Source: Balanoglossus misakiensis (taxonomy: Eukaryota; Animalia; Hemichordata). From it: a stretch of 64,000 bases of DNA. The notes beneath the pieces were generated by a model. That model was not told where the DNA came from. It did no database searches and was given only the letters and a program-made list of their open reading frames with translations. Made by a program: the position numbers and the translations under genes. The DNA lies in NCBI GenBank assembly GCA_040954595.2, contig CM082581.2, forward strand, positions 5,014,699 to 5,078,698, read 5' to 3'. Below, piece after piece: positions 1-41,400 of the stretch. The stretch's first letter is position 1; the number at the start of each line of letters is the position of its first letter.

Positions 1-593
1 AATTCAATTTGAATGAAGGTTTTAAAATGTTCTTTCCACTAAATTTCAACTTCACAGACGACACAGCAATGCAAAGTGTTCAATACAACATATTAACTCT
101 ATCATAGATACAAATATAAGAATAAGAAACATGATTAATACAGCTATGCACTTTCTGTCACCTTTGCATAAATGGTAGCGTTCTATACAAATTCTGTTTC
201 TTATTTGATTTTTATCGTGCCGTTTATAACAGCAAAAGTTGCAACCATAATAATAAAATTCCAAAAACAGTGAATTAAAAAAACATTTCGCATGTGGTGT
301 TAAATAAAATACTTACAACAGTTTTGAAATGTTCATTATGATACATGTACTTATTTCGATAAAGAAATACCGTTTAAAGAATCTATGTAGCAATTAACCT
401 ACGATGTCCAAAGAGCTGCCACCGTTGCATTATTCTCCAGACCTGATTTTACTTTCAAAATAAGTTTGGTTTATATATCTATGATTACCGGTGGACATAC
501 ACATCATTGCCGTTGTGGCTTTACGTTTAAAGGTAAACAAGTAAATTGTTTTGTATTTACACAAATGCACACAATTCTTCATTGATATTGATA

Positions 594-3151
594 TTATTTT
601 TTTTCTGAGGCATCGTTACTCTTGTACATTTTTGACGCTGTTAAAATTGCTTTAAGTATCGTGCTACGTACATACGCTTCTTTCGGTGCATCCTTGGACT
701 TTTTCCTAAACCCACTTGAAACATCGTTGGCGATGGCAAACATCCTTTGTTTATCGATACCAAATTCATTAACAAGCATTTTCGTAAGACCGTCAACCTT
801 CTTCTCTGCATCACCGGTTGTTAAACCCGCTACCAATTTGTCAAGATGGGTGATGATGACAAACACGGGAATGTTACGTCCTATGGTATAGATAAAATGT
901 ATAGATCCATACTGACCAAGATCGCCACGTGTATGGTGTGGACCGACACCTACGGTAAAATCCATTTTACGACCGATAACATGTTCATCACTATTCAAAG
1001 CATTCTGTACTGTTTGATACCATAATCACATATGAACCATGAGTGGAGAATATACATTCATTCTGATTTCGTGCGGAAAAGAAAACTGAAATGCAGTCCC
1101 ATACCTTGCTGTTTAGCCGCTTTTAATGCTATCACGTTGAGCACATCGAGTTTTACATTTCCGTCCTGGATGCAAATCACGGCATGAATTTTAAGACGGT
1201 CACGGGCTGTCCGTGATGTTTGTGTCCCGATTCCTTTTCCTGGTTCCTGCTTTCCATCCAGTAGATTTTCCATCAGTTTACTTAGTTCTTCCCGATATTT
1301 CGGATCCATAGTCTGACCAGGTACATCCCATAAACAGAACGAAGACTTTCCGATGTCTAATACATTCCGTGTGTATACTGGAGTACCTGCTGCTGCCCTT
1401 GGGTATGTTTGTGCAATCGCAGTTTCAATTTGGAGAGACTTAAATTTAGAAGAGAAAAGTTGCTTTCAAATATCCACACTTAGTGAGGAATGTTAAAATA
1501 AACTGTACACAATTGATTGCTGGATACCAGGACCTCCATAGTATTTTTGCATCGAGATTGCTAGGTCGGATGACTATTTTCATCATAAATGAAATAGCTT
1601 ATCAAGCAATCATATTTCTCTATTCGCAAATCTTTTTTTTTTTGGGGGGGGGGCAACAGAGTCAACTAATGTAAAACGGGATGTTCTTTGGTGTAGCTGT
1701 GAAAAGGAAATCGATTGGTCGAAGAATTCACGTCACTTGGTTAAACATGTTTCAGTGAGGAGAAAGCTAAATAAAGTCAAAAGTTTGCGACTTAGGCGCC
1801 TTGAAGACGGTACTATAGTTTCGAGTAATCGCACACCACACTTACCTCGGCAATTGTGTTGATTGTAGCCGACTTTCCATGATTTGGAGCGCCGATCAAA
1901 ATAATGTTCTGTTCACAACAGTATTGTTCTAAATTTCCTACAGAAGACATAAAATCATTTCTTCAGATTCTGATAGAAAGCAAATATGAAAATATTTGTA
2001 CAGATAGCATGCGAATAAATGCTTCGTGTGGTGTGTGAAAAGTTGTTATCATTACAATGAAAACGGTTCAAGAGCTTCACAGAGCTACCAATATACTTGT
2101 TGTATTCTGGCTTGTTTCCAAAATGTCTCACATGTTTAATGCCGTGGGTGAATATGTCAGGTTGTTGTTGCTAAAGTTTGCAAATACTTACGTAAATCGG
2201 AATCTGTTTCCTCTTTCGTGTGAAAAGTAATTTGTTCCTTCGGTCTGACGACCCTCTCCTCCGATTGCAATGGTCGACTTGTGAGCCCCGGGAGTGCGAC
2301 TGGTCTATACAGCAGTATATCAGTATTTTCACCAATGCCAAATCTTGTACGTATTCTTTCAGTGAGATCGGTAATATCGTCATCACTTTTGCAAGGCAAT
2401 AGTGTCCAGTTTTCTCTAAGTATGGGACGGACTTTGACTCGAAGGCCTACATCAAAGTTCAAAATGGTCCAGATTAACACTTGGTCAATTTATTATGGCC
2501 GAGTCTATTGACACCCGGATGGCAATAGACACTCTGACTTATTTAAATGAGCAGCAATTGTTTGGCAGTCCCGAAAACTCTTCGCCTATATCGGGAAAAC
2601 AATCGACAAATCCTCGTCTTATGAGCCTTGTATCCGAAAAGCAAGAATTTCAATCCATTGTACAGAATGCATTGTTTGAAGACTGTAACAAATGTGTTGA
2701 CCTTTAGAGACAAGGGTGACACTGCCAACCTTAAGTTAAACTTGTCATTTTGGAGTACGCCATGCATTTCTGATAATTTGCACGTATTCATACATACATG
2801 TAAGCTTATAGCCAGCTTATGCCCAGTTCTGAGTCAACATAATTAAGGTGAACATTGAAATCTATAGCCTGAGGATACTGGGACCAAACACCTTTGGTGC
2901 AAAGATGAGCATACTTTTGCTGAAGTTAGGTGGGTAACGTTATACGTGTCCACCAATGCACCTTCAAAGGGACAATGTCACTCTCGAGCTTTTTGGTTAA
3001 TTGTGTTTGATACGAAAGTCTATGCTGTTTGAATTGAATCATGCGATAGGAATATTGTCATACCGTCATTTTGTGAAGAGCGTCGGTCTGTCTGTTCCAT
3101 TTCTGGATCTTCTGTGCGTGTACTTGTTGTTGTTGACGGCGACTCGTTCAT
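594..3151 (-). CDS. IFI44/IFI44L-like P-loop NTPase/GTPase with N-terminal ubiquitin-like domain, 5 exons, ~351 aa
   Basis: Exons (minus): 3151-3064, 2446-2192, 1937-1846, 1438-1105, 880-594. All introns are GT-AG with matching phases (1,1,0,1), total 1056 nt. The spliced protein has Walker A NIILIGAPNHGKSATINTI, a G2-like GT, G3 LWDVPG, then LLDG...KIHAVICI and G4-like IITHLD. This order and spacing match the IFI44 family (GxxGAGKS / DxxG / IHCV / LTHVD). The P-loop exon is absent from the ORF track. Confidence 0.8.
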
Positions 3152-3159
3152 TGTGTGAT

Positions 3160-3355
3160 GGAATCGAAACACGGAAGTCTTTCGTTTTGTTCACTGGGCC
3201 TGGCGTATGTTTTATGGTTGCTTCTCAGTTCTCGCCATATATGAATAGTCATGAGTGTGACGTCCTAATAATTTACAGCAACCAGACGCCTATGACGTCG
3301 ACAAAATTATGGGCCAACGCGATCACACCAATCAGAACCCGCCCAATCCAATCAT
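3160..3355 (-). promoter_or_regulatory. Putative promoter/5' region of the IFI44-like gene
   Basis: Compact cluster upstream of the ATG at 3151: two TGACGTC CRE-like sites (~3258, ~3293), three CCAAT boxes (~3328-3352), GC box CCCGCCC (~3338) and AANNGAAA IRF-like cores (~3162 plus, ~3180 minus). It lies downstream of the PGGHG-like poly(A) signal. Confidence 0.45.
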
Positions 3356-3524
3356 GCTTACGTCTAATAAGTCAAAAAGGGGTCGTGCGATCGCTCACAA
3401 TGGCCTCGGGTCATACGAAACATTGACCAAAAGTAAATAAAAACCCAGCAACATGAACGACAAACTAATGGCGGAAAAATGCTGACTCAGCAGTTTTCGT
3501 CAATTATTAATTAAATTCCTATAT

Positions 3525-3530
3525 TTTATT
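3525..3530 (-). terminator. Candidate poly(A) signal of PGGHG-like gene
   Basis: TTTATT on plus = AATAAA on minus, ~140 nt after the stop codon at 3672. Confidence 0.5.
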
Positions 3531-3671
3531 ACAGATTTGTATTATGCTTACAAAGGAGAAACGACAAATCCACAATGGCAGAAAATGACAATACTTTCAA
3601 TTTTACTGATCGTACATCCTTAAACTACGCCTTTGGACCAACCCAGAACTCATTTCCTTGGGATTCAATGA

Positions 3672-6600
3672 TCAGAACAGTGACATGACAATAAAGAGTG
3701 TCCCTAAAACTATAAGAGCCGTGGCCGATGTTTTACATGCAGCGCATACTGGTGGTCCTTCAGATGGTTGTGCAGTTGGTGGGCCCAGCGTTGGGGAAGT
3801 GACGTCTACGATTTTACTGGTAGAATCTCTTGGTAGGGGACATCCGCTGTCAGTTGTGGTGGTGATTTTGCCACTTTGACGGGCGAAGGTCAAAGGTTGG
3901 CCTGAGAAGAGAAGATTGGTCATTAGCTTGTAGTATGAGAGTGAATGTCTGTTGTGATTTCGTAATGGAGGTATGGGTGAAAAGGCTCCTGTGACCTTTT
4001 CCTGAACTATGTGCGTTGTGCCTCCTACTTGGCCCATACCAGTAGCTTCGAGGAGTTTGCCAGTGTTTAGTGAGACAGAGAAAAGTAACATGTAAGTGAC
4101 AGCACACGGCATAGAGATGCAACGCACTCCAGCTAATATAGTCGTGGAATGTATTGCTTACTGACTTAATGAACTTTTATGGTTGGTTATGAATTTTAGA
4201 TACACCAAAAATGATATTTTAGGGGGGAAATCGTCACGCAACGTCAGTGTTTAACTTGTCGCACCTTCAACTAGATCATATTCAGTTTGATCGTTGAGAG
4301 TTACTTTTAGCGGGAAACTCCCAACTGTGGTGGCGTTGATCTCTACAGTTGTTGCGTCATACTTGAAATCCAGGGAGGCTTCGAGATATTTGATTCCGAC
4401 GAACTTCACTTCGGTTGTGTCCGGAATCAGATTCGGGTTGAAATCGAGATGCTCGACGTGCAGCCGAAAACCCCCGTAGCCGAAGAAAACGGCTTGCAAA
4501 AATCCTCCCATGCCGGTGATGAAGTTGACCGCGCCGATACCCTGCTGCGCTTCGGTCCAAATCTGAAAATGAAATGTCGAATGGTCGTTCGTGCAGTGTT
4601 GCTTACATATATCTTTCTCAAGGTGCCTATAGCTTTGTGAAAAATAATATACAGAATTTCGCAAATAGAAAAACTCTAAAGATGAATGTTGCTGTGTGTT
4701 CATTCACTGCTGCATACAATAAATTTAGGCTCCATATGAAGTCAGTTTCTTTTTCGAAATGTGTATATCCTTAAGTATGTGGTTTTGCACGTTAACTTTA
4801 GACAATTTAGAATGAAAAAAATATTTCTGTTTTAGAGTAACAAGTTAAGTGGCACACTTCAAAATTGTGCATTGTGCAAGGTATCTTAACAACAGCTGAA
4901 CACCATATTAAATTGAAATGTGTCGTAACAATCACTCCGGGCCCTGGAGGGTGTATTCTATAAGCAAAAAATCACACTAATACCTTATACGGCTGCCTGA
5001 CATACAAACTGTAACTTTTGTGGAACAATTCGGTTGCCTTATCAAAGTTTTCAAGTTCAAGGTGGCCAACTGAGAACATTCCCCAGGTCATGGCCGGTCC
5101 AAACGGATCGGTGACAGGCTCGTAGATCTCCAAGTCGTTTCCTCGCACTTCAGGCGTCATTTCCCACATCATCGGGAATCCCAGAAGAACCACATCGGCT
5201 TGCTTTATCATTTCACCTGCGAATGTATTGGAATTTTATGTTAAAATGTAGACATCTACTTGCATATTCATATGCTCTTCTTTCTTTTTTCTGCCTCACC
5301 CTGTGGAAATGGGAACTGGGTGCTGAATCACATTTTAAAAATCGTGTGGCATGTAAGCTTTTAACACTTCATGGATACCACAGCGCATGCGCAACAAGTT
5401 CGTTGTTGGCGACAGCAGTGTTCAACTCTGCACCTGTGTGCGCTTGAGGAAATCAAATGAAAACGTCCGTTTACGGAGATGCCGAACCCATACATGCATA
5501 AAATAAACGATAAATCGTCGAAGTGTGGAGGTTTTCGGCTGCACGTCGGGTATCAGTATGACGTCTGTCTCCCCCCGCGGGCAGACAGCAGTATGCTGTT
5601 ACCCCCAGAGCCACTCAATATGTATACAATATCATATTGACATATCTCTTTGCGTATAGATGATTTGGGGGACCTCCTATGAATGAAAAAAATGGTTGTT
5701 TGTGTGCATTTGTCTCACCGATTGGGTAACCTTCATATTCGGGGTGGAATTTCCTCTCGCTGTCAAAGATATACGTCATGTTGCCAGCTTTGTCCAACCA
5801 GTCGTCGGGCAACGGGTCGTTGCCACAGAGACAAGCCGCGTAATCGGCCATGAAGATAGCTAGACTTGCGCCGATGTTCGTGTAGACTGAATTGTCAATC
5901 TCTTCATGGTACTCATCCGGAGGCATGACACCTAAAAGGTCATGGAAATGAAGGAAAACATAGCAGAAATGAATTAGAGTCTACTGTCAAAGAAAACAGT
6001 ACATTCTTGGCACATTCTTTTTAGATTCTTCGTTTTGCAGTAACATCGAGTTTCGCTCTTCCAAGCTTGTAATGTTCACATTTGATATCACCAAAATGAC
6101 AACATATAGTTTGACTAGAGAACAAACAGCGTCGAGTTGTACGTACTGAGTTATACTTTTCCCCCAAAGCTACCACAATCTATAGAGAACGGTATTTTAC
6201 CAAGAATTTCCCAGGCATCCCTCTCATCGTTGTAGGTAACGCGACTCTGCCAAAAGTTGGCGATTTCTCTCGTGAAATCGCACCCCCAGTCGGACAGCCA
6301 CTCCACGTCACGGGTCGCCGAGATGTACTGCCTCGCCGCGAAGGCGACGTCGCTCGTGATGTGTTGCTGGTTCTCTCTGGTGGGAATGCAGCAGTCGGGT
6401 GTCACTTCGGCGCCGGTGAATGCGCCCTCCCATGGGTAGCGAGTGCCCAGGTGCCAGTGGCAGAGCGCGCGACGCCTGGCCTCCTCTCGCACGTGCCACC
6501 TGTACGACAGGATGTCTCGGCCAATCGACGGGTGGAACATCAGCACTGTCGGGAACATCCAAGTCTCCGTATCCCAGAAACTGTGGCCCTGGTAGTCGCG

Positions 6601-9600
6601 CAAGTAAGCTCCGTTGGCCAGACCACCAGGACTGAGACCGTAGAACTGGTTCTTGGGACTGTGCGCATCGTCTGAAACGGGCAGCGAACTAAGGATGTAG
6701 TAGAAGCAGCCGTAGATATATTTACCAAGCTGTACATTGTCAACCTCAATTCTGGCACCGTCCCACGTTTCCCGCCATTTCTCGACGTGAGAATTTAGCA
6801 AGTCGTTACTAGCTACACCAGCATCAAAATCAGCTTGTGCTATTGTGTCGTTCTGGTCTATAGACGTGATGTAGTTATAGACGTCATTTCCAGTCGTGCG
6901 GGTGTCAATCATTATCTCCTCGAATTCTGTGTAGTAGACAAATACGGTGGACGTTTCGCTCAAAATGGTCTCCGATATTTTAGTCTCGCCACTTATCTTC
7001 TTGTAATCACTGGATTGGACAGAAAAAAATAAACAAGGATTCGCAGTCAGCTTACAGTAACTTAGAGAATATACAGATAGTCGTATTCTTATGCAAACTA
7101 TTTTACCAAGAAACGAAAAATAGATATGGCATGGGAATTTGATTTAAAACATATTCAAATAATATTCTGCACAATGTGCGCGTGACATACTTTCCATTCG
7201 TGCTGTAGTCTTCGGGTTGGGAGAAGGTAATATCTTCGGATTCGGGACCTTCGTTATTGGCCAGCGTCACCGTGACATCTTGGTTACCGTTTCCGACCGT
7301 TACCACTTCAATCTGGGTCACTAGAAGCCGTGTGTAGAAACGATGAGCGAATATACGAACCGTTACGGTGAAGTCATCGTGTTTGGCCTCTTCGTGCCAA
7401 ACTCCTGAAGATGATAAAATTTGGGAGGAAAACGGTGCAGTAATCAGTATCGGTATATCTTCCATAAAACAAACACAGGCCAGTCATGGTATCATTACTC
7501 GCTGATACGTCTCAAAACACTTTAGCCAACTTGGAGCTTTTCCCCACTATAATTGCGAGAAAATGTTTGTTGTTTCTTTAGGTGCACCTGAACCAGCGTC
7601 TAAACCAAGTTTTGTACACAATTTCCTTTTAAAGGTTTGAGCTCTGTAAAATGTAATAATCTGAAAAAGCTACTACCTTGCTCTACATCCAGAAAATATC
7701 TCCGCGTCACTTGTTGTTCTATATTTTCCGGAAATGACACCCTTATTGCGTTCTTGGATGGAACTCTGGCGCGATGGCTGACACCTGCAATATGAAAGGA
7801 AGACAAGAAAAGACCATCACGATTGTCGTTTGAATTTTACGGCAGCTTCTCCAACAGTGTTAAAATCAGCATGTTACCTCCATAAAATTGACCACACATG
7901 TCTCTTATTGATGCACAATATTACAACAGAGCCTCGTGAATACACTATAAGATCACCTATGCGTGTGATTATTCGTAGTAGTACCAGGGAGTCGCCACAA
8001 CTAAACAGCGCCCTCTAAACATGCGATTTATTCAAAGCCGACACTTGAACCATGCCACTTCCGAAGTGGCCTGGTTCTGCTAGTTCTATCCAACTTCTAA
8101 TAGATATGTCTTGCAAAAACATTGATGACGTTTGACGTTAGTGTGTTTATAATAATCCTAATTGACCTTAGAGCAATTACAAATCCTCTACATGGGACGT
8201 AACATACGTCAAAAGCGATCCGGGACTCACATATGTCACCAGGTCGACCAATTCTTCATGTGTTTACCGCCGTACCTGACTTATCACCTGATGGATGCAT
8301 CTGTCAAGATACGCCTTTCGACTACAAACCACCAGTCATATTTATCATAAATCACCCCAAGTCTCCGCTGTACTCTATGTTTGTGTCGTACTATGATAAA
8401 TGCACAGTAAAATAAGGGCTTTTAAACCAAAGACGGAAAAAGCTTTTCCTACAATAACTGTATTCTAGCGTAGAAATCTTTGGATTTTCAATGAACATGA
8501 AGATAGTTTACGTAAAAGGAGTGGTATATGAAAACTGCAAATGCTTAACTGCTGCTTAAGAGGACGGCATTAAATTTCGTGCGTTCTAGCAGGTCGGAGA
8601 GTGATCCCGTGTCTCCGTGACCCGAAACATGTCCTGGAAAAGGGTCAAACCCATCAGTGTAGTGCATGGACTAGTGTACCGTATGTTGTGTGTCGCGGCC
8701 TCATCATGTGGCGTGAATGGAAATAGCTTTGAACAAACAAAGCAATAAATTGCACAACTGACTAGATACATGATGTGGGTGATGTCGAGATAGTTTTTGT
8801 GGGTCACGCGGCATGAATGTAATCTGGTGTCAGTGCGATTGTCTTTCGAAAATTTGGCATCCGCCATTTTGGTTCCACACAAAAAAACGCACAGCTAGCC
8901 TCTAACTTCATTCCACACATTTTCAAGTCAACCATCATTCTTCTCACCCCTTATGCATACACAAACATGACAGCATTTATATAATCGAAGTTTTTGAAGC
9001 TTAGAAAATGCATTTTCTCACAACCGATAACTTTATCTGTTAATGATAGCGTGGAATAACCAGAACTGCGTTTTATCACAGATTCCCTCCAGAAACAGGA
9101 TTCGAAACAGCGATGATGGACTTCCTCTGTGTGTTTCGGTGTGCAATGTATTTAATCCAGCCTTTCCTGTTTCGTAGCAAACCACGCAAACGAGATACCA
9201 ATACGACATTATGCAAATTAGACTGCGCATCCCTCTTAGACTGATCCCCATTCTCCAGCGTCTATAATTTTATCATTCACTCTATTAAAATTTCAAAATC
9301 TACAAACTTACCTAATCTATCATTGTACAGTCCATTGACGTAAATGGTATCTCTGTATACGGTCGATGATAGATGCCCATTCCCGACAGACGCCATGTAG
9401 CTAAAGTCTATCTCGCCTTCATCCATCGGTAGTCTGCATACGTACAATAAGAAAACACACAACAGATGATGTACGGTGGTACTGCCATGTTACAATTCTT
9501 GTCGAAGACGGAGCGTTTCCCGATACAATCAATCGTCCGTCGTAAATATATAACTTGGCAATAATGATGTTAACTTTGGGGGGGGGAAGAAAACATAACT

Positions 9601-9830
9601 TACTCGTTTGATTCAAAAACTGTCGGGGAGTCACTGACGTCATCGACATATTGCGCTGTTGCACGGCGAAGTCTGCTTTTCGTCGATTCGCCCATTGGCT
9701 CGTTGCGATATTTCAACATCTGGTCCGCGCCGATGGACAACAACTTTTCTAGTTCAAGTTCATAGTGACCATGGATCGGGGAAGAGGAAGCCAATAACAG
9801 CAATAACACCAGACAGACAATGTTAGCCAT
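3672..9830 (-). CDS. PGGHG: Protein-glucosylgalactosylhydroxylysine glucosidase-like (GH65, acid trehalase-like), secreted/GPI-type, 9 exons, ~817 aa
   Basis: Exons (minus): 9830-9604, 9433-9312, 7784-7677, 7404-7191, 7009-6201, 5931-5719, 5216-4984, 4562-4265, 3901-3672. All phases are consistent, total 2454 nt. GH65 motifs: GLSPGGL, YQGHSFWDTETW, YPWE, QHITSDV, VMPPDEY, NSVYTN, IKQADVVLLGFP, GPAMTW, WTE, GAVNFITGMGGFLQAVFFGYGG. May be a paralog rather than the strict ortholog. Confidence 0.9.
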
Positions 9831-12800
9831 CTTGAAACCAAGATAGTGTATACAGTCTCCGTCCTGCAGGACCGAATAGTATTTAGGGCAAAGTGCCATT
9901 GTAAGCACATTCTTTGTTTAGCGAAAAGTCCAATGGGTTTTCAGAGGTCTTCTTCAAAATTTTCCTTCATCAGAGCGATTTCTGTCGCAAAACCCCAGCC
10001 GTAAGGTTGTAGAACCGTTACCCCAAGTTTACGTCTAGTGATAATTACGTGCTGCGCAGACAGTCACTCAAAACGGACAACAAATCTGAAATAATAAAAA
10101 CAAAATGTAAATTGAAGGCTACAGATGGCAGTGACTTTTAATATTTGTCAAGAAAATACGCATATTTTACAATGTGTATCACATTACAGAATGGCGTATA
10201 TGGCATGAGAAAACTGTACGTGAAAATGAAATATGTCTGCTTGTTAGTTTCTCTGTCTGTCTTAAAATGGTTTATTAAAACTTTGAGTGGACGTAAAACA
10301 GAGAAATTGTTTAATTTGGCCATAAAACCCCCGGGAGTTTCTGTTTGAATAACTTGACTTCGCATTGACAGATACAAATTACATTGCCTGCTGAGGACAG
10401 TGGTGTCAGTAAAATGTTTACTTGTCAATTTTGATTAATGCGAACTCATACGCGTGGTCGGGCGCGGTGCGGTGGTGTGTGGTGTGATGATGTGAACAAT
10501 CGAATTACAATAACTCGTCAGGTAGATATGCGTTTACGAAGCACATATTTCACGAACACGTGCAAAAACGGAAGAACCGCATCAATGTGTTATCTGTACC
10601 CGGTACTATCCCGAAGATCCCATGTATTGACGATAACATTGATTTAAATCAGTCGTTTTTACCGAGAGAGACAAAATCTAACTATTTGAAATTAAGATCT
10701 AATTTTATCACCAATGAAAATGAATATGGCAATTATCTTGTTAAGAAGAGGTTTCAACTCTGCTTTCAATGCAGTTCTGGTGAACACGCGATTCTTGACC
10801 CCCAGTCAAAACTCGGTCATTCCGACTAATATCAACAAAGCGTGAATCACTCTAGCACACGGCGACTTTGATGTGGGCTATTTCCATTAATTTTTCTCCG
10901 CGCAACATTAAAATTTCGGGCAATGGCATTTACACCTGATAGAAAGCGGGCGTGCAGAAAGACGATACAAATGAAGATGTTCGAACGAGGCGTTAACAAC
11001 AAAACTATATTAGAACATTACTTATAAAAACTGTAGGCCCTTTGCATTCACCCGATATACCGACAACTCCACCCCTGCCCCTGCTTGCACAACAAATTAT
11101 GGGATTCATTCCACACTCGCAGGTCCGGCTTTCTAAAATTAAAGCCGTCAATTTCCGTCTACTTCTATGTCTACATGTATATCTTGTTTCCAATGCCCAT
11201 GCGCAGTGCGTCATGGGATGGCGTGTTGCAGCAGGGACAGTAGGAGAATATTCAAATTTACGAACGTCTTATATAAAAAGACACTCCATAACGAACGACT
11301 GCACTGTTCGAATGCATCATTGATCTATGCAATATAAGCTTACGCAGCCCAAACCCTATTTTCACAGTACGCAATTCGCGGGATATAAGCTTCTAATTTT
11401 CCTTCTTGGGGTAATATTCAATTCGTACTATTTCGTCTACACGGTTGGTTTGCACACATACAGGCTATATTGTATGGAGAAGGCGCACAAGTTATCGTCC
11501 ATCGGTGACCTTGAGACATATTTATGTCATCTCTAAATGGTCTTATCTCGGTAGATGTGGTGCGGTGTCATGTGTACCCCATGTCACGCCTTATGACCTA
11601 CATGAGATATGATATGTTGGTAGTTATTACATGTACATTGTACCCCCTCGCTCATACTTAAATATGTAACATAGACCCTGGATCTCCAGGGACAATGGTT
11701 ATCAGAACTGCATTTCCCTTGAACATAAAACATACCACATAGTAATTCATACTAATCAAAGCTTTTTGGGTGACCGTGATCAAACGAATTTAACTTTGGG
11801 AGTAGATATTTCATCTAAAACTGGAGCTTACGTGTGCAAAAGCGAATTGTTTTCTCTTGTGTTACGTATTCCGATCTGGAATGACCGTCCGTGAAAATCG
11901 AAAAAAATCGTTCCTGAAAAATATTCATCAAAATCACCCAGCTCTGAGTAACTTATCGATAATATCCTAAATTACATAACAAAAACAACGTCTCTCGGAC
12001 ATTTGTACTAGTCTTTAAAAGAGACATTTTTGCTGTTGCTCAAAACTCAGCAGCCAAGACGTGTTCCTTAGTAAAAAGTGCCAACACAATAGAAAAACAA
12101 TTTGTCTGAAGTGTGAATTTTGGCCTAAATGGCCTTGTGAAGAACTGCAGTTATGTTCGACAATGATTATTTTCAACAAACATTTACCTATCTGCATGGA
12201 AAAGTTAGTACATGATCGTACAGGAACAATAGCATTCGTATTTTCTATTTCGCTAACATAATTGGAACTGATCGGAAGAGACGCATACGGTTGAAATCTG
12301 TCAAAATTCAGCAGAGAACTTGTACTGTGGATCCTCTATGTTTTTAACGTCCTGAAATTCAGTGCAAGATTCTCCTCAAGACAGTACAACAAATACTGCT
12401 CGATTGTACATTGTTTGTTTGTATGCAATTAATACCTCAATAGTTCCGATCATGGTTATGAAAAGCCAGGACATACTCAGTTCCCGGCACTTATTATTCG
12501 CCGTAAAATCTCCATGGCCGTGTCCTCCGTTCACAACAGGTCTATAAAGGCTTCATTCGAGTGCATTGAAACTAGAATAGTTTATTAAAACAAACAAACC
12601 GTTAATATTGAATGAAATCGTGATTTAATACATTTTGAAATCAAGTATTTCAATCTAAACAACACTAAATTATGTTCAAGTACTGCTGATTAAAATATTT
12701 AGGTTTACATGTACCAAATGTTGATTCAGAAAATGAGAAAAGTCTTGATTATAAAGCGCACTGACTGTCAGTTTACGCTTACATCTTTTCAGAGCTTGTG

Positions 12801-14884: not shown

Positions 14885-16463
14885 ATGGTTCAAGATTCGA
14901 CCCTGAAAGCGAACGCGACCAACGCTCCACCCGTGGCGGAGAGAGTGAAAGCAGACGCGGACGACAGCGAAGTGGCCATGATCTTGACCAAACACCAGCC
15001 GCTGCAACCATCGGCGCTCAACAGAGCCATGCACCACCCGTACATGCCACAGCAACCCGTCGGCCGCGCGGCCCACCAAGGATTCCCTATAAACCAAGCC
15101 ATGAGCGTACAAATCACTCCGGCGCACGGCAACATGGAAAACATACCGTACCAGGATCCGTCTTTGCTACAACGTCACAGGACCGTGTCGCCTTCAGGTA
15201 AATATCGTATTTGCACACAAATTCGTAGATTCACCTCCATCATGATTCAGCTCGCAATCCTTCAAATCTAGTTTGCCTTTGATTCTGCATGGGTAGGCTC
15301 ATAGTATTTCGTTACAAATAGTTTATCAACAGTGCTGTGACACTGTGACAAATAGTGGCGATCACCCCTAGTAATATTTTTTTCTCTGATCGACACATTG
15401 TAATCGGACTGTTAATTATCTTCCAGTTTCCGAGGCTGAATCGGACAGCAGCGGCGAAGGTTCCGTGCGAAGGAAGAAAGCGCGTACTGCTTTCAGCCAA
15501 CAACAGGTGATCGAACTCGAGAAGAAATTCCGCCAGCAGAAATATTTATCGGCCTCCGAGCGCAACACCTTCGCTCAAAAGATCGGGATCTCCGACACTC
15601 AGGTACGTCGAAACGCTCCACCGCCAAAATATACTTGCAGATGTCACAACCTGAAATCTAAAAACGCGCATGCTCCATCAATTTCTTATTTCACACAGCA
15701 TGACGCTGTTCAAGAAAGTTCACGTTAATCCGATAATCGTAAATTAACTAGATTTAAAACACCTCGTTGTTTATGTGTACTGTGCATAACACGGGTGGGC
15801 TTCCTAATCATGTTATCTCTGAAAGAGCATTATCTGTAATCTGATTGCCTGGAATAAAGAAAACAATGAACTGAAAGTACATGGTAACCTCCTGCAACAG
15901 AAACTCTTTTATTCGTCGCATAGCCCTACAAGCGTTCGAGTTAATGTGAGACCACGATAGCAAAATTATACATGTCAGATTGCGTAGATGATCGTACAGA
16001 CCGTTTCAACCGTATATTCACTATTTTAACGATTTTTCATCAGGTGAAGACGTGGTTTCAGAACCGTCGCATGAAGTGGAAACGTCAGCGCAAGGACGAC
16101 CCCGAAGTCAACCATATCGGTAACGTGTACCCAACAGCGCCGTACCCGGCCGGTTCCCCGGTCTACTCCAGTCCAAGCTACCAGCACGTCGGGTCACAAA
16201 TGGTGACCTCACAGGCCCAACCGATGACGACAGTCAGGCTGCCCACCAGCTCGTCCCTCCTGCCACCGGCGTACAACGTCCAGCCACCGCCGACCTACCC
16301 GGCCTGCACTGCCGCTGTACCGCCCACGACGTACGCACCGCCCGCCACGTACGCGCCGACACTCTCCACCTATCACCACGCCGGTTATAACGTCGGCAGC
16401 TTACAATCTTCCCCGCTGAGATCCGTGGCGTCTCCGTATGACGTCGCACACGTCATGTACTGA
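14885..16463 (+). CDS. NKL-class homeobox gene 1, Vent/Ventx-like, 3 exons, ~302 aa
   Basis: Exons 14885-15197, 15427-15602, 16044-16463 (phases 1,0). Homeodomain RKKARTAFSQQQVIELEKKFRQQKYLSASERNTFAQKIGISDTQ|VKTWFQNRRMKWKRQR with an intron between HD residues 44 and 45 and T47/Q50/M54. Pro/Tyr-rich C-terminus. AATAAA at 16679. The homeobox is certain, the Vent family assignment is inferred. Confidence 0.9.
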
Positions 16464-21739: not shown

Positions 21740-23044
21740 ATGACGCAAGAAAAAGTGACCGCCATCGCAGTCGCGCGGCCGAGTGATGACAGCGACGATG
21801 ACGAATTAGTCATCGATATTTTGTCCGACGGTGATGAGATGTCGACAGAATCAAGACTACAGGAAATCGCTCCATCTTCACCTACAAGTAAGTGATGGAA
21901 TATCTAATACAATTGCGTTCATGTAAGATAATTCGTTGAGTTTCGATCGCCAACAAATGCGAGGTTTACGATGCAGTACTGGTCCTTGCTCTCCAATACA
22001 AAACTCAGAGGGGTGACAGTAAGACTACGGACCCGCAGCAATGCCGGTCTTTGATGACACTGGTGCTCGTCCAACAAATTCATGAGATATGGAAAAGTTC
22101 CCAACACCTCCCAAATGGTTTCAATAATTTCTTATTCAACATTTTTCCCTTTTTCTTATTTTCCTCAGCATCAGAAAGCAATTCCGACTGCAGCGGGGAT
22201 GGCTGCCACGGGAGGAGACGAAAAAGAGCCCGCACGGCGTTCAGTAATGAACAGATTTCAAAACTCGAGAAGAAGTTCAACCAACAGAAGTACTTGGCTC
22301 CCGTCGAACGTGAAGAGTTTGCGGAGGAAGTGGGACTCTCAGAAATGCAGGTAAATATCGAGTTTCCCTGTTCAATTTTATGAATCTGCCTTGGAACAAA
22401 AAATACATCAGATTTTAAGATTATTTCAAGGAATTTTTTCACCAAGAGATATAATATCTCCTCGTTCTTGTTGATATTATTTAATTTTCCTAGACACATT
22501 ACCCATTTGCAATGTTTACTTACTTTATACGATACATCATCCATCACATCACGATACACTACACGCCGAAATAGAAATTAGCAAAACACGCGTTGTAATA
22601 ATGTCTGTCCGTTTCACCCAACAGGTCAAAACTTGGTTTCAGAACCGCCGGATGAAGTGGAAAAGACAACCGAGGCCAGACTCTGACGTTTCCGATACTG
22701 AAAGTCGCCTGAGTGGTTATATGGAGGCGCCGATTTATCCCGGCCCAGCTTACCCAGCGCATCGTCCCATGTTTCCTTCCTCTCTCCCACGACCGGTCAT
22801 TCCAGCGTCTCAACCGCAACCCATGACGACCGTTCATCTACAGCCACCGAGACCCGCACAGTACCTTCGGCCACACTGCGGCTACCCGATGCCGGCTGCC
22901 GTGCCCCATCACTACGCCCCCTTCGCACACCATTTGCCGGCGAGACCCTACGTTGCCCCGTCGCACAGGTATTTCCCAGGCTACCGCGTAGTTCCCACGT
23001 CGTTCAGGCCAATACACGGACACCTCACGCTGGCACAGTTCTGA
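21740..23044 (+). CDS. NKL-class homeobox gene 2, Vent/Ventx-like, 3 exons, ~249 aa
   Basis: Exons 21740-21887, 22169-22350, 22625-23044 (phases 1,0). HD RKRARTAFSNEQISKLEKKFNQQKYLAPVEREEFAEEVGLSEMQ|VKTWFQNRRMKWKRQP. An upstream in-frame ATG at 21602 lies 5' of the TATA box, so 21740 is preferred. Confidence 0.88.
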
Positions 23045-29073: not shown

Positions 29074-30370
29074 ATGGTCACCAAAAGCGACAGCCCAACC
29101 CGCAGAGATTCTGGAAGTAAATCCCACGTCGACGATTACGAAGTTGCGGTGATACTCGCCCAGACATCGGCGATGATTGACGGCAAATACAAGACTCCCG
29201 ACGCGAGCAGCGATGATGTGGCCGTTTCTGAGAGCGACTACGGCAGTGCAGATAGCGTGATCAGTTCTCCAACACGTAAGTAGCATACACGATCCCCCTT
29301 TTACCTTGCCGCAATGATTTTTGTGGGTGCTGCCCGATTGACTGGTGCTCGCAGCTCGTGCTGCGAATAACCAGTCAACGTAGCAGCACCCGCTGCAATC
29401 ATTGCAGCTACTCTCTACCCTGATCCTAGTGACCAAAAGTGGATGTACTTGAGTCCTCATTGCGTACGGCCCAGTTCATTACCAGTACATGTATATCTTT
29501 TATTGAATAATATAATAACCCGTCTTGTATTTTTCTACAGCATCTGAATGCGGCTCTGACACGAGCAGCAGCGACAGTTGTTGCGGCACCACACGCAAAT
29601 CGAGGCGGAAGCGAGCACGTACAGCCTTTAGCAGCGAACAAGTCTACAAATTGGAAAAGAAGTTTCAAGACCACAAATATCTGTCGCCCACCGAACGAGA
29701 AGACTTTGCTGAGAAAATTGGACTTTCAGATATACAGGTATGTCGAAAGTTTCACTTCCATTTTGCTATTTTTGAAAGTTCCTCGGGTTTTCGAGGATGT
29801 TTGCTTGTTTCAAAACCAACTCCGTGTTTATTAGTATATAAGTACACGTATATTCAAACACTGGCGACAACATTGGTGACAATAGTGTTGTGTAGTATCA
29901 TACAACATACCTGCTAGGCCTGCTTTTTTTACAATGAAACTAATTTTTTTCTAACTCAATTTCAGATAAAAACCTGGTTTCAAAACCGACGCATGAAATG
30001 GAAGAGACAACGCAAGGACGATTCCGAGGACGCAGCAATTCCCGAGTCGTACCCCGTAACGTCACTTGTCAGTTCTGCCTACCCACCGCCGCTGATTCCG
30101 TCTCCCCCAAGTTTATACCCCGCACCGATGACGTCAGCCCACCTGCGACACGTCCCGTCCGCTGTGCCGCTCCCAGCCCGACAAATGGTGCCGCTGTCAC
30201 CGTATCCACCCAGGGTTTCAACGCTCGCGTACCCGACTTTGACGCCGATGAGATCCCCCTATGCACCGGCGATACCGTTCCATCCCCCGGCCAGTTACAG
30301 TTTGAGCCCGTTGGTGTCCAGTCCGTACAGTCCGCTGCATAGACAGTACCCGCTGACCTTCTACTGTTGA
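29074..30370 (+). CDS. NKL-class homeobox gene 3, Vent/Ventx-like, 3 exons, ~267 aa
   Basis: Exons 29074-29275, 29541-29737, 29966-30370 (phases 1,0). HD RKRARTAFSSEQVYKLEKKFQDHKYLSPTEREDFAEKIGLSDIQ|IKTWFQNRRMKWKRQR. Pro-rich C-terminus. AATAAA at ~30542. Confidence 0.9.
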
Positions 30371-36829: not shown

Positions 36830-38417
36830 GTTCGAACCCAGTATCGAGGTACAATGTACCAGTATCGCATGATGCTTCAAGTTCTGTCTACTTGCGGCCA
36901 TCGTGATCATAACAATTGAAATTAATAGATGCCATTGCCTTTCTATAGGTTGTTTATTGTGCGAAAATAAAACGTTTCTCGAGCTTTTCAAATTGTATAC
37001 TATACATGTACTACTTTTCCACTTACATATAATATTTTTAACTGTAGTGTGTGACGCGGCTATTATGAGCCCAAATGTCTGTATTTATCATTGTACGGAG
37101 AATGTTGGTCACTTTTATATTATCGTCATTTAATTATGACTGTTCGGTCTATGTTTTAGTTTCTGTGCTATGACACGCAAATGAAATACATTTTCCTAGA
37201 ACGCGGTTGAAACCCATGTAACCGGGCCTGCAAACCTGAGTTTTTGTGATATTTTGTGGTTTGGCATCCAGAAACTCGGGAGAATCATCTTGTCTTTGGG
37301 GGCATGTGACTTGCCAAAACCCACTGTCGACAATTAAGTGTCGTCCAACTTTAACTCAGAGTATGATTCCCGGTGATTTTAGTGTGATATGGATTTCAAA
37401 ATATTAACGACCCATTCGTACTCAGGCTGACATACACACACATTTTAGGCCTATTTTCCCGACAAAAACATATAAAGCCGTGAAGAAAATTTGTTACACT
37501 TAGTGACTTAGGCCATCTACTGTCTATGCTCAGACCTCCTGGCCTAGCAATGACGTGTTGATAAGTTGTTAAGTTAATGGTGACAGGTTTTGTAAAGAGC
37601 GATTCACACTTTACAGCAAGTAATAAACAAGTCAATCGTCACCATCTGGGACACGAAGAGGCAATTACTGGAGTTCACGCGTGTCTGCTTTGCTGTTGAT
37701 GACCAGCATTCTCTCACGCAGTGGTTTCCCCCCTCCCTGTTTTCGAAATAGTTTGCACCAAGTGCATTTCTATTATCCAAGCGATTTGCATAACAATAAT
37801 AATGTCAAATGATTGTAAAGCCTGAAATTCCTGAGTTTTACACCAATCAATTACGAGCTGGCGGTCACGTGGTGCAACCGTTGTCGTCCATGTTTAGCTG
37901 GTCCTTCGATTTTCGCGATTTCGGAAACCGTATCACGTTCGAAATTGACGATCGTAGGAAGATCGGGAAAGGCGATCGCCGCTCGGTGATGATACAAACA
38001 CACTGGTGGATTTCTGGAGAATATATCGAGGGTCGGTTTGTTGTGAAAACGCGCCTGACAGCCAGGAAACCCTATGTTGACAACATTGAGTCTGGTGTTG
38101 TGTGAGTTGGTAAGTAGGTAAGCAAAAGTTGTTGTGGACCTGCGAGTATTCTGTCGCGATCAGGATGACGTAAGTGGTCTTTGGGCGATCTGATCGGATA
38201 CTTAACTCACAACGTTTTGTACAGTTGACATGCCGAATATCTGTCGCCAGACATACTCGTCGTAATGTAAATCGTGAACTCCAGTTAGAGGCGAACGTTG
38301 GAAGTACTCGTGTTACACCGTACGTACTGCATGGATGCAGGTATAAAACGACATGTCGTACCCTAACGAGAATCATATCGATTGATCGATTGGCTAGTTC
38401 ACACTCTCCGTTCAAAG

Positions 38418-41400
38418 ATGCACCAAACCAGGAGAAAGAAAAAACGGCCAGTTATGGCCAATTTGAAGACAGTCGAAGTGGCCCGGGGTCGGAACGGGTA
38501 CGGGTTCACCCTGTCGGGTCAGTCACCTTGCATTCTGAGTTGCATTCTGAGTGGGAGCCCCGCTGAACAGGCAGGGCTGAAGACGGGCGACTATGTTATG
38601 GCCGTCAACGGCGAAAATGTCGCAAAGCTCTCGCACGAACAGGTGGTGAAGTTGATCGGCGTGTCGACTGCGGTGCTCAGGTTGACTATAGCCGAAAAAC
38701 AGCGGCGTGATCACACCGATTCTTCCGATGACGAGTTCGTAGTCAACCGGCCCAGGCCGAGATCTCACCCCAGGATGAAAACTAGAACGCCGCCGACACC
38801 CACCAACGATTACCAGAACCCCGGCGCGAGTCGGGTGGACAAGGTGGTCGAGGATCTCTTCCGGAGAACTTTGTTCGGAAACGCGATGACATCAGAAGCG
38901 GTCGAAGAACATGACGAGGAGGAAAACGAGAAAAGTGATAGGGATGCTAGGCTTGCTCCAGGTCACCTAAGTCCGTTCAACAAGTCGGGAAAATACGAGG
39001 TTTTCTTGAAGAAACCACAGAAGTTGTACGAACGCAAGGTGTGGACTGGAAAAGGGTTTGATGATGAGACGGGTGCAAAACCTCGAAAAACTAAACAAAA
39101 ATATTCCGAGAGACACCAGATGTCTAAGCAACAGATGCAGTATATTTATCAGCAGCAGCAACAACAACAACAGCAGCAACTTCATCAACAACAACTGCTG
39201 CACCAACAACATATGCAACAGCAGTATGACAGTGGGCGTTTCATGTCGACGCCAGATCCAGCCATGATAAACAGACCGCTGTCACCTTTAGAGGTATCAA
39301 GCATCCTCTATCCGTCACTGCAACCCCACGTCAGCGCCGCTGTACCCCTTGACATTGACCACGAACTGGACGAGGACGATCTGTATTTACGCGTCGTTGT
39401 TGGATATTTAGGGTCGATTGAGATCCCGGCGGAGGCCAATCTTCAGACTGCCAGTTTGCAAGCCATCCGTGGATGTGTTCGGAGGCTCCGGATCGAGCAG
39501 AGAATCCACACGCTCGTGCTGATGGAGATTACCATCCGGGATGTCAGACTCATCACTTCCAACGGCGCGGTTGTTGTGGTGTATCCGGCCGAGAAGTTGG
39601 CGTTCACCGGAGTCTGTCCGGACGATAAACGCTTTTTCGGCCTGGTGACCATGCACGGACTGGAAGACTTGCACGAGATGAACGACATTGACAAGGACAA
39701 TTTTGGGAGTTCTTGTCACGTGTTCATGGTGGATCCTGAAATATGTTCCCACAGTGTCCACGCGAAGAAAGCTGCCAAGTTCGGAATTCAGTGCGCGGTG
39801 GATCCGGAGACCAACGGATGCCGGGAATTTCCACGATCGGCCAAGCCGATTCTTAGGACGCTCGCGAAACTGTACCAAGATCGGCACAACGGTCTGTACG
39901 TCAATGAATTGCAACGCGCTCAGGTATACATGGGTGGGGACTACCCGCTCGATGCAAGGCGAAGCAATAGTAACAGCAGCAACAGCGACAGCGGAATCGG
40001 TTACTGTCGGGATTCGGAGGGAATGAACGGATCGGGGTCCGGCGACCGGGTCGTCGTCGTCGACATCCCGAAAAACGGGCACGAATATTACAACGGGCAG
40101 AGCGCCGCGACCCCGAACAGGCTAGTCGTGAAAGCCGACGTGATGCACAATTCTGACCGTGAGGTCGCGTATTCTCTGTCGTCGTCGTCGGCGAAGTCGC
40201 AGCTGTCGTCGGACCACACGCACAAAAACACAACCGCTGCGGTGGCTGATGCATCGTCGCGACTGTGCCCGCGTGTGCGAGCGCATCCCCAGGAACCAGA
40301 CCGGCCGGTGTCCAGACTAGGTATGCACGTTTACACGGATTCTGTGGACTCGGGCAGCACGCAGGAATCGCTCAACAGAGCGCACCAGAGTTCAGAAAAC
40401 GAATTCACTGATGAACAGCAAGCGATAGCCAGAGCTCCGACAGGATTACCTCCGTCGGGTATCCACAGACATTCCATGTATGCCAAAGTGGATAATTCTG
40501 GCAACAGAAAGGATGCAGCTGAAAGTAACGGAATCGATTCCAGAAGAATATCGGATGGCAGGATATTAACAAAGAAACCGGTGAGTGAATTCCCATATCT
40601 TAAAATCCATATATGGGTAATTTCAGTAAAATTTACTAAACGAACAGTAGCTGAACCTGTCACTGGGCTTCTGATATTTTTCTCATTCTGTATTATTGAT
40701 GGGTGCATCTGTCAAGTTTTCATCTTCTACTGTTTAGATTATCTTCATATGCCCAACATTTGGCTTGTCAACAGGCAGTACTTTGTAAGTATGTATCACG
40801 CATTGTTATAATTGAGAATTGAATTCAGAGATGACTTCACTTCTCAACAACATACCAGTGATGTCTACACACATCCAGGCCTTGTTGTTGCCAAAGCAAA
40901 TGTTGGGAAGAGGAAGAAGAAGACACTCCATAATGTATTTGATAAACAGCATTGAAATACCGGAACATTTATTAAAGGTATCTTGTCCCTTTAATTAACA
41001 GACCCGGTATGATAAGGGTTACGTCAACTGTTCCTGTAGTTTCCTGTATTATTGATGCTTGTCCCATATTGAGTACGCTTACGTGCCGTTTTCACTCTCT
41101 CACTCTCAGATTCCCATAATACAGGTCAGAGGTCAAATATCCTCAGGTGGTAATTGGTATGCAAGTGATGGTGCACATTCATGTCTGAATAATTCTGAAT
41201 GGTTACATTTGAAGTTATGCATGACTGTCGTTCAAAAAAGTTACGCTGCCAGAAATAGTACAAATGCCAAAACAGACCAACTTTCAGGATGTCGCCCGTA
41301 AAAAGCGAGGGGGGGGGGAGAGAGAGAGCAGTCTGGCCATGAAAAGTCAATTGTTATCCGTTACCTGGGATTAAAGTTTAATGTTTCCATCCCAGAAGAC

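What the first reader, a model, noticed from the sequence alone, without database searches (positions are those of the whole stretch)
2157..2446. Ubiquitin-like (coilin-N-like) domain fused to the IFI44-like GTPase in place of TLDc, with a possible stand-alone UBL isoform
Seen: exon 2 encodes LRVKVRP-ENWTLLPC-DITDLTERIRTRFGI-DILLY-VALP-VVRPKEQITFH, a beta-beta-alpha-beta-beta pattern. From memory it resembles the coilin N-terminal self-association domain (VTDLISLIRQRFGF...LGLYL...LVRDNDCLRV). Known: vertebrate IFI44 carries an N-terminal TLDc-like domain. Inference: a possibly undescribed UBL+IFI44 architecture in which the UBL drives oligomerisation or condensate formation. Also seen: ignoring the GTAAGT donor at 2191 leaves the frame open to a stop at 2157, giving a ~125-aa UBL-only protein that could act as a decoy.
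Basis: partly seen in the sequence, partly recalled or inferred. Interest (0 to 1): 0.75.

Follow-up and report, generated by a model that had tools for sequence, protein, structure and literature searches.

The report
Ubiquitin-like exon on IFI44-type GTPase
A predicted five-exon animal gene joins a small, likely ubiquitin-fold exon to a GTP-binding domain that likely lies near the antiviral protein IFI44, and the add-on likely serves as a docking handle in immune defence; the proposed coilin likeness and short decoy form have little support.

Summary
Five GT-AG exons give one intact 351-aa frame: a disordered leader, an 84-aa module, then a TRAFAC GTPase without TLDc. The module is a frame-neutral phase 1-1 exon. 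It has one true relative among 1.84 billion representatives (P0003, 37% identical, apparently the same exon border). A ubiquitin fold is likely, not shown: Atlas features 0.89-0.92, weak matches to ubiquitin variants, AlphaFold pLDDT only 56. Coilin-N likeness was not supported (no Pfam hit). IFI44 kinship rests on motifs, a weak Atlas lead (0.79) and recall, and Gln follows DxxG where IFI44 has Leu, so I do not file it as a member. The 125-aa isoform is ordinary read-through: 98 of 156 donor-like sites stay open as long. An ATTAAA after its stop (14 of 156 by chance) keeps it possible. The fusion is seen at this locus only, without RNA evidence. The scan has no look-alike elsewhere, but has noted vWA-fused and stand-alone IFI44-like GTPases. 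Verdict: a new variant of a known kind, modest interest.

The parts
3264..3352 (-). Promoter-like cluster: three CCAAT boxes (ATTGG at 3352, 3347, 3332), a GC box at 3344 and two CRE-like GACGTCA at 3299 and 3264, between the upstream gene's AATAAA (3530) and the ATG
   Evidence: the only place in the window where a 60-nt tile holds 3 CCAAT boxes (3 overlapping tiles of 6394); function inferred
3064..3151 (-). Exon 1 (coding part): ATG with A at -3, 29-aa S/T/E/D-rich, likely disordered leader; phase-1 donor, the weakest of the four (3 mismatches to consensus)
   Evidence: one other phase-1 candidate donor exists at 3399
2192..2446 (-). Exon 2: 255 nt, symmetric phase 1-1, residues 30-114; likely beta-grasp (ubiquitin-like) module with no Gly-Gly
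2157..2191 (-). Intron-2 read-through: 11 codons to TGA; would give a 125-aa module-only product; probably chance
2135..2140 (-). ATTAAA 16 nt after the read-through stop: possible intronic polyadenylation signal
   Evidence: 14 of 156 comparable sites have such a hexamer
1846..1937 (-). Exon 3: linker and G1/P-loop (GAPNHGKS, residues 130-137)
   Evidence: (MMR_HSR1 E 8.5e-4, AIG1 E 1.2e-3, both under the cut-off)
1105..1438 (-). Exon 4: switch regions, G3 (DVPG 183-186, then Gln187), helix with LLDG (204) and strand KIHAV (228)
594..880 (-). Exon 5 (coding part): G4 (THLD, 267-270), C-terminal helix, stop TAA

Best explanation
This is likely one spliced gene for a 351-residue GTPase that likely belongs near IFI44 and likely gained a ubiquitin-fold module by exon shuffling, the module likely acting as a fixed docking handle that brings the GTPase to a partner in innate defence. 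Shown in the sequence: five GT-AG exons in one open frame; G1, G3 and G4 motifs; a 255-nt phase 1-1 exon 2; no TLDc and no Gly-Gly. Inferred, with my odds: exons 2 and 3 splice together (0.85); exon 2 folds as a beta-grasp (0.7); the GTPase belongs to the IFI44-like clade of TRAFAC GTPases (0.7); it acts in immunity (0.55); the module docks on another protein rather than polymerising (0.65). Mechanism: the module cannot be cleaved off or conjugated, so it would bind a partner, as integral UBL domains do (established knowledge), while the G domain cycles GTP. Gln187 after DxxG would allow Ras-like catalysis in cis, which IFI44 and IFI44L are described as lacking.
For: Gene model: 351 aa with no internal stop, introns 617/254/407/224 nt, all GT..AG, phases 1,1,0,1; promoter-like cluster upstream of exon 1. 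Module: P0003 is 37% identical over 84 aa. Its only residue triplet compatible with a phase-1 GTRAGT donor (1 of 96; background 808 of 109,646) sits at the position of this exon's donor, so the exon border looks conserved. Skipping exon 2 keeps the frame (266 aa). Fold: among 30 Atlas hits, 24 are unnamed clusters (best three 0.92, 74-76 aa); the named sets are all ubiquitin, Rad60-SLD or TUG-UBL1 (0.89-0.91). The two-sequence profile's PDB matches are ubiquitin variants in 2 of 3 rows, in register over helix and third strand, but only at E 0.5 and 0.91. Element order is beta-beta-alpha-beta-beta. GTPase: exon 3 matches TRAFAC P-loops. Exon 4 has an IFI44-like cluster of 243 aa among its Atlas rows (0.79, rank 26, 134 of 256 features, the highest count among the 7 rows shown). 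The order of LLDG, KIHAV and IITHLD fits IFI44-type proteins by recall only. Immune role by analogy: IFI44 and IFI44L restrict RSV (bioRxiv 10.1101/2020.02.24.963900, passages); IFI44 transcripts rise after infection in oyster and mussel (PMC8917759, PMC6401078, passages).
Against: Both AlphaFold models are of low confidence (pLDDT 57.2 and 55.7). No Pfam ubiquitin-clan match for either member. The Atlas score for IFI44 is under 0.9, a lead only, and ranks below fungal unnamed clusters (0.86-0.88) and a septin cluster (0.84). Gln follows DxxG where IFI44 and IFI44L have Leu. P0003 comes from a 626-base contig, so its link to a GTPase is unknown: the fusion is seen at one locus only. Intron 2 has a competing acceptor at 1970 with a better pyrimidine tract (0.76 against 0.71), which would end the protein at 124 aa, and an in-frame ATG at 1950. 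No AATAAA or ATTAAA lies in the 593 nt after the full-length stop. No exact ISRE-type element lies near the start, and one-mismatch copies are common (168 in the window). In IFI44 the G1 region was dispensable for antiviral activity.
Confidence: 0.45

Rival explanations
1. One reading: exon 2 is a coilin-N-like module that self-associates head to tail and builds filaments or condensates of the GTPase.
For: Coilin's N-terminal domain is predicted to be ubiquitin-like and forms fibrils through R8 and D79 (PMC9556525, passages). Exon 2 has a basic first strand with a Val-Lys-Val conserved in both members. By a recalled register (no call) the window protein has a basic and an acidic residue near the two coilin positions.
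Against: No Coilin_N match in Pfam for either member at E up to 10. No coilin cluster among the family sets of 30 Atlas hits. In the same recalled register P0003 has Thr at both positions (alignment).
Confidence: 0.12
2. A real 125-aa module-only isoform is made by intronic polyadenylation in intron 2 and acts as a decoy or dominant negative beside the full protein.
For: ATTAAA lies 16 nt after the read-through stop; 14 of 156 comparable sites have such a hexamer. The full-length stop has no canonical hexamer within 593 nt.
Against: The 11-codon read-through is ordinary (98 of 156). The donor has a full GTAAGT intron side. P0003 stops 2 codons after the same border, with an unrelated tail.
Confidence: 0.12
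3. Two separate small genes: a module-only gene ending near 2140 and a stand-alone GTPase starting at the ATG at 1950. The fusion would be an artefact of gene modelling.
For: In-frame ATG at 1950; ATTAAA at 2140; TLDc-less IFI44-like proteins of about 243 aa exist as an Atlas cluster.
Against: Under 200 nt would have to hold a 3' end, a promoter and a 5' UTR. The ATG lies inside the acceptor's pyrimidine tract with T at -3. Donor and acceptor phases match, and the donor position looks conserved in P0003.
Confidence: 0.08
4. The gene is real, but the GTPase belongs to another TRAFAC branch (septin, AIG1/Toc, Roc or Rag-like), or the module is not a beta-grasp, and the protein has a non-immune role.
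For: DVPG-Gln is Ras-like rather than IFI44-like. A septin cluster scores above IFI44 in the Atlas. Exon 3 matches MMR_HSR1 and AIG1 weakly. The models are weak.
Against: The 45-residue span from G3 to the KIHAV strand, with its LLDG helix, is by recall longer than in Roc or Rag and typical of IFI44-type domains. No septin, AIG1 or Roc model matches exon 4 or exon 5. All named Atlas sets for exon 2 are ubiquitin-like.
Confidence: 0.23

Closest known systems
IFI44 / IFI44L (TLDC5) and invertebrate 'interferon-induced protein 44-like' proteins
   Same: N-terminal module followed by a G domain with G1 GxxxxGKS, G3 DxxG and G4 (bioRxiv 10.1101/2020.02.24.963900, passages); exon 4 has an IFI44-like Atlas cluster as a weak lead.
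   Different: No TLDc (IFI44 has a putative one: PMC5614904, passage); a likely ubiquitin-like module instead; Gln rather than Leu after DxxG; too divergent for any sequence search here to link it to a named member.
Coilin N-terminal domain (Pfam Coilin_N; family name recalled)
   Same: About 80 residues, predicted ubiquitin-like fold, at the N-terminus, not conjugatable (PMC9556525, passages).
   Different: No Pfam match; no coilin-type low-complexity middle, RG box or Tudor-like end; fused to a GTPase.
Integral, non-conjugated UBL domains (Rad60-SLD, TUG-UBL1, parkin-type UBL)
   Same: Atlas neighbours carry PF00240, PF11976 and PF11470; no Gly-Gly.
   Different: No Pfam match; sits on a GTPase as a single symmetric exon.
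vWA-fused and stand-alone IFI44-like GTPases of protists and fungi
   Same: An IFI44-like G domain with a front end other than TLDc, or none.

Membership tests
Ubiquitin-like (beta-grasp) domains | beta-beta-alpha-beta-beta(-beta) fold with the sheet grasping the helix | tested here: inconclusive
   Element order fits (E2-7, E14-17, H21-35, E43-47, E64-66) but pLDDT is 55.7 and pTM 0.39
Ubiquitin-like (beta-grasp) domains | Sequence or feature likeness to known UBLs | tested here: inconclusive
   Atlas named sets all UBL at 0.89-0.91; ubiquitin variants at E 0.5 and 0.91; no Pfam clan match
Conjugatable ubiquitin-like modifiers | Gly-Gly at the end of the domain | tested here: not met
   No GG anywhere in the 351-aa model
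Coilin N-terminal domain | Match to the Pfam Coilin_N model | tested here: not met
   Not listed for P0001 or P0003 at E up to 10; HMMER's filters hide most matches above E 0.1, so a remote likeness is not excluded
Coilin N-terminal domain | Equivalents of R8 and D79, which mediate self-association (PMC9556525) | not testable with these tools
   No coilin sequence could be fetched; by a recalled register they are present in P0001 and absent in P0003
Coilin N-terminal domain | Head-to-tail self-association into fibrils | not testable with these tools
   Needs an experiment
IFI44 / IFI44L | G1 GxxxxGKS, G3 DxxG and G4 motifs | tested here: met
   GAPNHGKS 130, DVPG 183, THLD 267; shared with many TRAFAC GTPases, so not diagnostic
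IFI44 / IFI44L | Hydrophobic residue (Leu) directly after DxxG | tested here: not met
   Gln187 against Leu in IFI44 and IFI44L (bioRxiv 10.1101/2020.02.24.963900)
IFI44 / IFI44L | N-terminal TLDc domain | tested here: not met
   No TLD match on exons 2-5; exon 1 holds only 29 low-complexity residues
IFI44 / IFI44L | Significant sequence similarity or tree placement with named members | tested here: inconclusive
   Atlas 0.79, rank 26, on exon 4 only; no member sequence was retrieved
IFI44 / IFI44L | Induction by interferon-type or infection signals | not testable with these tools
   No expression data; ISRE-like matches near the start are at background density

The most novel reading that the evidence does not exclude
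An invertebrate deuterostome has turned an IFI44-type GTPase into a self-assembling immune effector: a mobile phase 1-1 exon supplies a coilin/PB1-like head-to-tail polymerising ubiquitin fold, a Ras-like Gln makes the G domain an active switch, and splicing or intronic polyadenylation gives three forms (full, module-less, module-only) that tune assembly.
Probability: 0.08. Interest if true: 0.7.

Novelty: new variant of a known kind. Interest (0 to 1): 0.35.

Why it matters
The molecular action of IFI44 proteins is still unexplained (passages). A natural variant that swaps TLDc for a small ubiquitin-like module, and has a Ras-like Gln where IFI44 has Leu, would suggest that the front domain is an exchangeable targeting unit. 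It would also give a compact protein for testing whether this family hydrolyses GTP. The weight is limited: the fusion is seen at one locus, in a fast-evolving gene, and swapping of front domains on immune GTPases is common.

Tried and rejected
Expression: no RNA holder was listed for 500-3300, so no reads could be laid; this is no evidence either way. No whole genome is held, so paralogues outside the window were not searched; inside it tblastn found no second copy. Word-based protein searches for longer relatives gave nothing for exon 2 (33 candidates), exon 4 (246) or exon 5 (46); weak evidence. HMMER over the representatives was run for exon 2 only; 3 of its 4 hits (P0002, P0004, P0005) were dropped as tandem-repeat artefacts. 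Locus scans found no relative: metagenome, viral (40), prokaryote genomes (70), phage tblastn (88). Fold searches with the two weak models were uninformative: best Z 4.1 (SUMO, parkin-Ubl, ISG15 and ubiquitin-fragment rows at Z 2.8-3.0 among unrelated ones) and 5.7 to AcrIF9; Foldseek had no match at E up to 0.001 in PDB or BFVD. No ubiquitin-fold entry stood above background; this does not exclude the fold. The two-copy complex job gave 'no answer' (score 0.00, alignment not used). PDB sequence searches with P0001, P0003, exon 4 and exon 5 were blank; NCBIfam gave only generic P-loop matches and PADLOC nothing. Rejected: an ISRE-driven promoter (two one-mismatch sites at 3160 and 3180 among 168 in the window); a repeat or transposon origin of exon 2 (no telling repeats in 1-4000). 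CpG enrichment upstream is modest (19 of 182 tiles reach it). Literature: ten searches. One search gave 0 papers. One search gave 2: PMC5499597 (passages read, irrelevant) and PMC13750538 (listing only). One search gave 1 (listing only). PMC9334734 only lists IFI44 (passages). Subscription journals and InterPro were not searchable, and no supplements were read; the coilin alignment in the supplement and figures of PMC9556525 bears on the coilin question and was not seen.

Full report
1. Observation. The finding lies on the minus strand, downstream of a glycoside-hydrolase-65 gene (Pfam; likely PGGHG, name recalled). The GTAAGT donor starts at 2191. Ignoring it gives a stop at 2157 and a 125-aa product with exon 1. 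All coordinates hold.

2. Gene model. Exons 3151-3064, 2446-2192, 1937-1846, 1438-1105 and 880-594 give 351 aa with no internal stop. The introns are 617, 254, 407 and 224 nt, all GT..AG, with phases 1, 1, 0, 1. Three CCAAT boxes, a GC box and two CRE-like sites sit at 3264-3352, between the neighbour's AATAAA (3530) and the ATG; this is the only triple-CCAAT cluster in the window. The model is a prediction. Intron 2 also holds a good out-of-frame acceptor at 1970, which would give 124 aa and, by established knowledge, a likely target of nonsense-mediated decay. It also holds an in-frame ATG at 1950. Other notes of this scan call the genome a likely acorn worm; I did not test that.

3. Exon 2 is a conserved, portable module. 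It is 255 nt long and flanked by phase-1 introns, so it can be gained or skipped without a frameshift (266 aa without it). HMMER over 1.84 billion representatives gave 4 hits at E up to 0.001. One is a true relative: P0003, 98 aa, from a 626-base unnamed contig. It is 37% identical in a gapless alignment over 84 aa, 43% over 65 aa by BLASTP, and scores 128 against a maximum of 27 in 2000 shuffles. P0003 looks like the same exon read past its borders. Its last three residues are the only triplet of 96 that fits a phase-1 GTRAGT donor (background 0.74%), and they fall at the position of the donor here; the acceptor side is also compatible. This is inferred from the protein, as the DNA was not seen. 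Whether P0003's gene continues into a GTPase is unknown.

4. Fold. Atlas features place exon 2 next to unnamed clusters (24 of 30 hits; best three 0.92, 74-76 aa) and to clusters with ubiquitin, Rad60-SLD or TUG-UBL1 families (0.89-0.91; in the 0.91 set only 29-36% of members carry the family). The two-sequence profile finds 3 PDB sequences at E up to 10; 2 are designed ubiquitin variants, aligned over the helix and third strand, at non-significant E 0.5 and 0.91. AlphaFold gives beta-beta-alpha-beta-beta but with pLDDT 55.7 (57.2 for the single sequence). Pfam lists no ubiquitin-clan or Coilin_N model for either member. I put a beta-grasp at about 0.7. There is no Gly-Gly in the protein, so the module is not a cleavable modifier. 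Coilin's N-terminal domain self-associates through R8 and D79 (PMC9556525, passages). I could not fetch a coilin sequence. By a recalled register the window protein has fitting charges and P0003 does not. Coilin likeness beyond a shared fold type is unsupported.

5. The GTPase. G1 is GAPNHGKS (130), G3 DVPG (183) and G4 THLD (267). Exon 3 matches TRAFAC P-loops below the curated cut-offs. For exon 4 the Atlas lists fungal unnamed clusters (0.86-0.88), septin (0.84) and a 243-aa chordate IFI44-like cluster (0.79, rank 26); all are leads only. From recall, the LLDG helix, the KIHAV strand and the C-terminal pattern fit IFI44-type domains well, but no member was retrieved to align. One described IFI44 feature fails: IFI44 and IFI44L have Leu after DxxG instead of the Ras-type Gln (bioRxiv 10.1101/2020.02.24.963900, passages), and this protein has Gln187. 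TLDc (PMC5614904, passage) is absent. I therefore say 'IFI44-like' (0.7) and do not file it as a member.

6. The short isoform. The read-through is 11 codons. Of 156 GTRAG sites in the window, 98 stay open that long, and the gene's other donors give 14, 10 and 15. P0003 stops after 2 codons with an unrelated tail. In favour: ATTAAA lies 16 nt after the stop (14 of 156 by chance), and the full-length stop has no canonical hexamer in the 593 nt available. Odds about 0.12.

7. How it likely works. The best reading is a soluble GTPase of the IFI44-like kind whose front module has been exchanged by exon shuffling. The module would dock the enzyme on a partner, as integral UBL domains do (established knowledge). 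The immune role is by analogy: human IFI44 and IFI44L restrict RSV and slow proliferation, and IFI44 transcripts rise in infected oysters and mussels (PMC8917759 and PMC6401078, passages). Against it, no exact ISRE-type site lies near the start. Joint confidence 0.45. The rivals are a coilin-like polymer (0.12), a real decoy isoform (0.12, compatible with the main reading), two separate genes (0.08), and another GTPase branch or fold (0.23).

8. Novelty. Searches for IFI44 with a ubiquitin-like domain found no relevant paper (open-access library only, InterPro not available). The scan holds no look-alike of this locus. Unchecked earlier notes describe IFI44-like GTPases with vWA or with no front domain, so a front end other than TLDc is not unique. 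This is a new variant of a known kind, resting on one locus. Interest 0.35, down from 0.75, because the two most striking parts (coilin-like condensates and a decoy isoform) have little support.

Noticed in passing
window 15390-16460, 21940-23041, 29519-30367 (+): Three similar homeobox genes in tandem, each with the homeodomain split by an intron at about the same place; Pfam Homeodomain E about 1e-11. They look NK-class by recall; the family was not assigned.
   Followed up: partly
window 38367-40808 (+) and 59467-59745 (+): An 814-codon frame with an N-terminal PDZ domain and, 19 kb on, a frame that looks by eye like the start of an RGS domain (no Pfam match): likely RGS12/loco (recalled).
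   Followed up: partly
window 3672-9900 (-): Glycoside hydrolase family 65 gene, likely PGGHG-like. Its last exon encodes a Ser/Thr/Pro-rich stalk and a hydrophobic C-terminal stretch, and a frame near 9850 looks like a signal peptide, which suggests a secreted or membrane-anchored form.
   Followed up: no
window 3264-3352 (-): Compact promoter-like cluster of three CCAAT boxes, a GC box and two CRE-like sites, only about 180 nt after the neighbour's AATAAA.
   Followed up: partly
window 878-880 (exon 4/5 region), residue 187 in exon 4: Gln after DxxG, Ras-like, in an otherwise IFI44-like domain: a natural test of whether this family can hydrolyse GTP in cis.
   Followed up: partly
window 1-593 (-): No AATAAA or ATTAAA after the full-length stop within the window; only variant hexamers. 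The 3' end may lie beyond the window.
   Followed up: no
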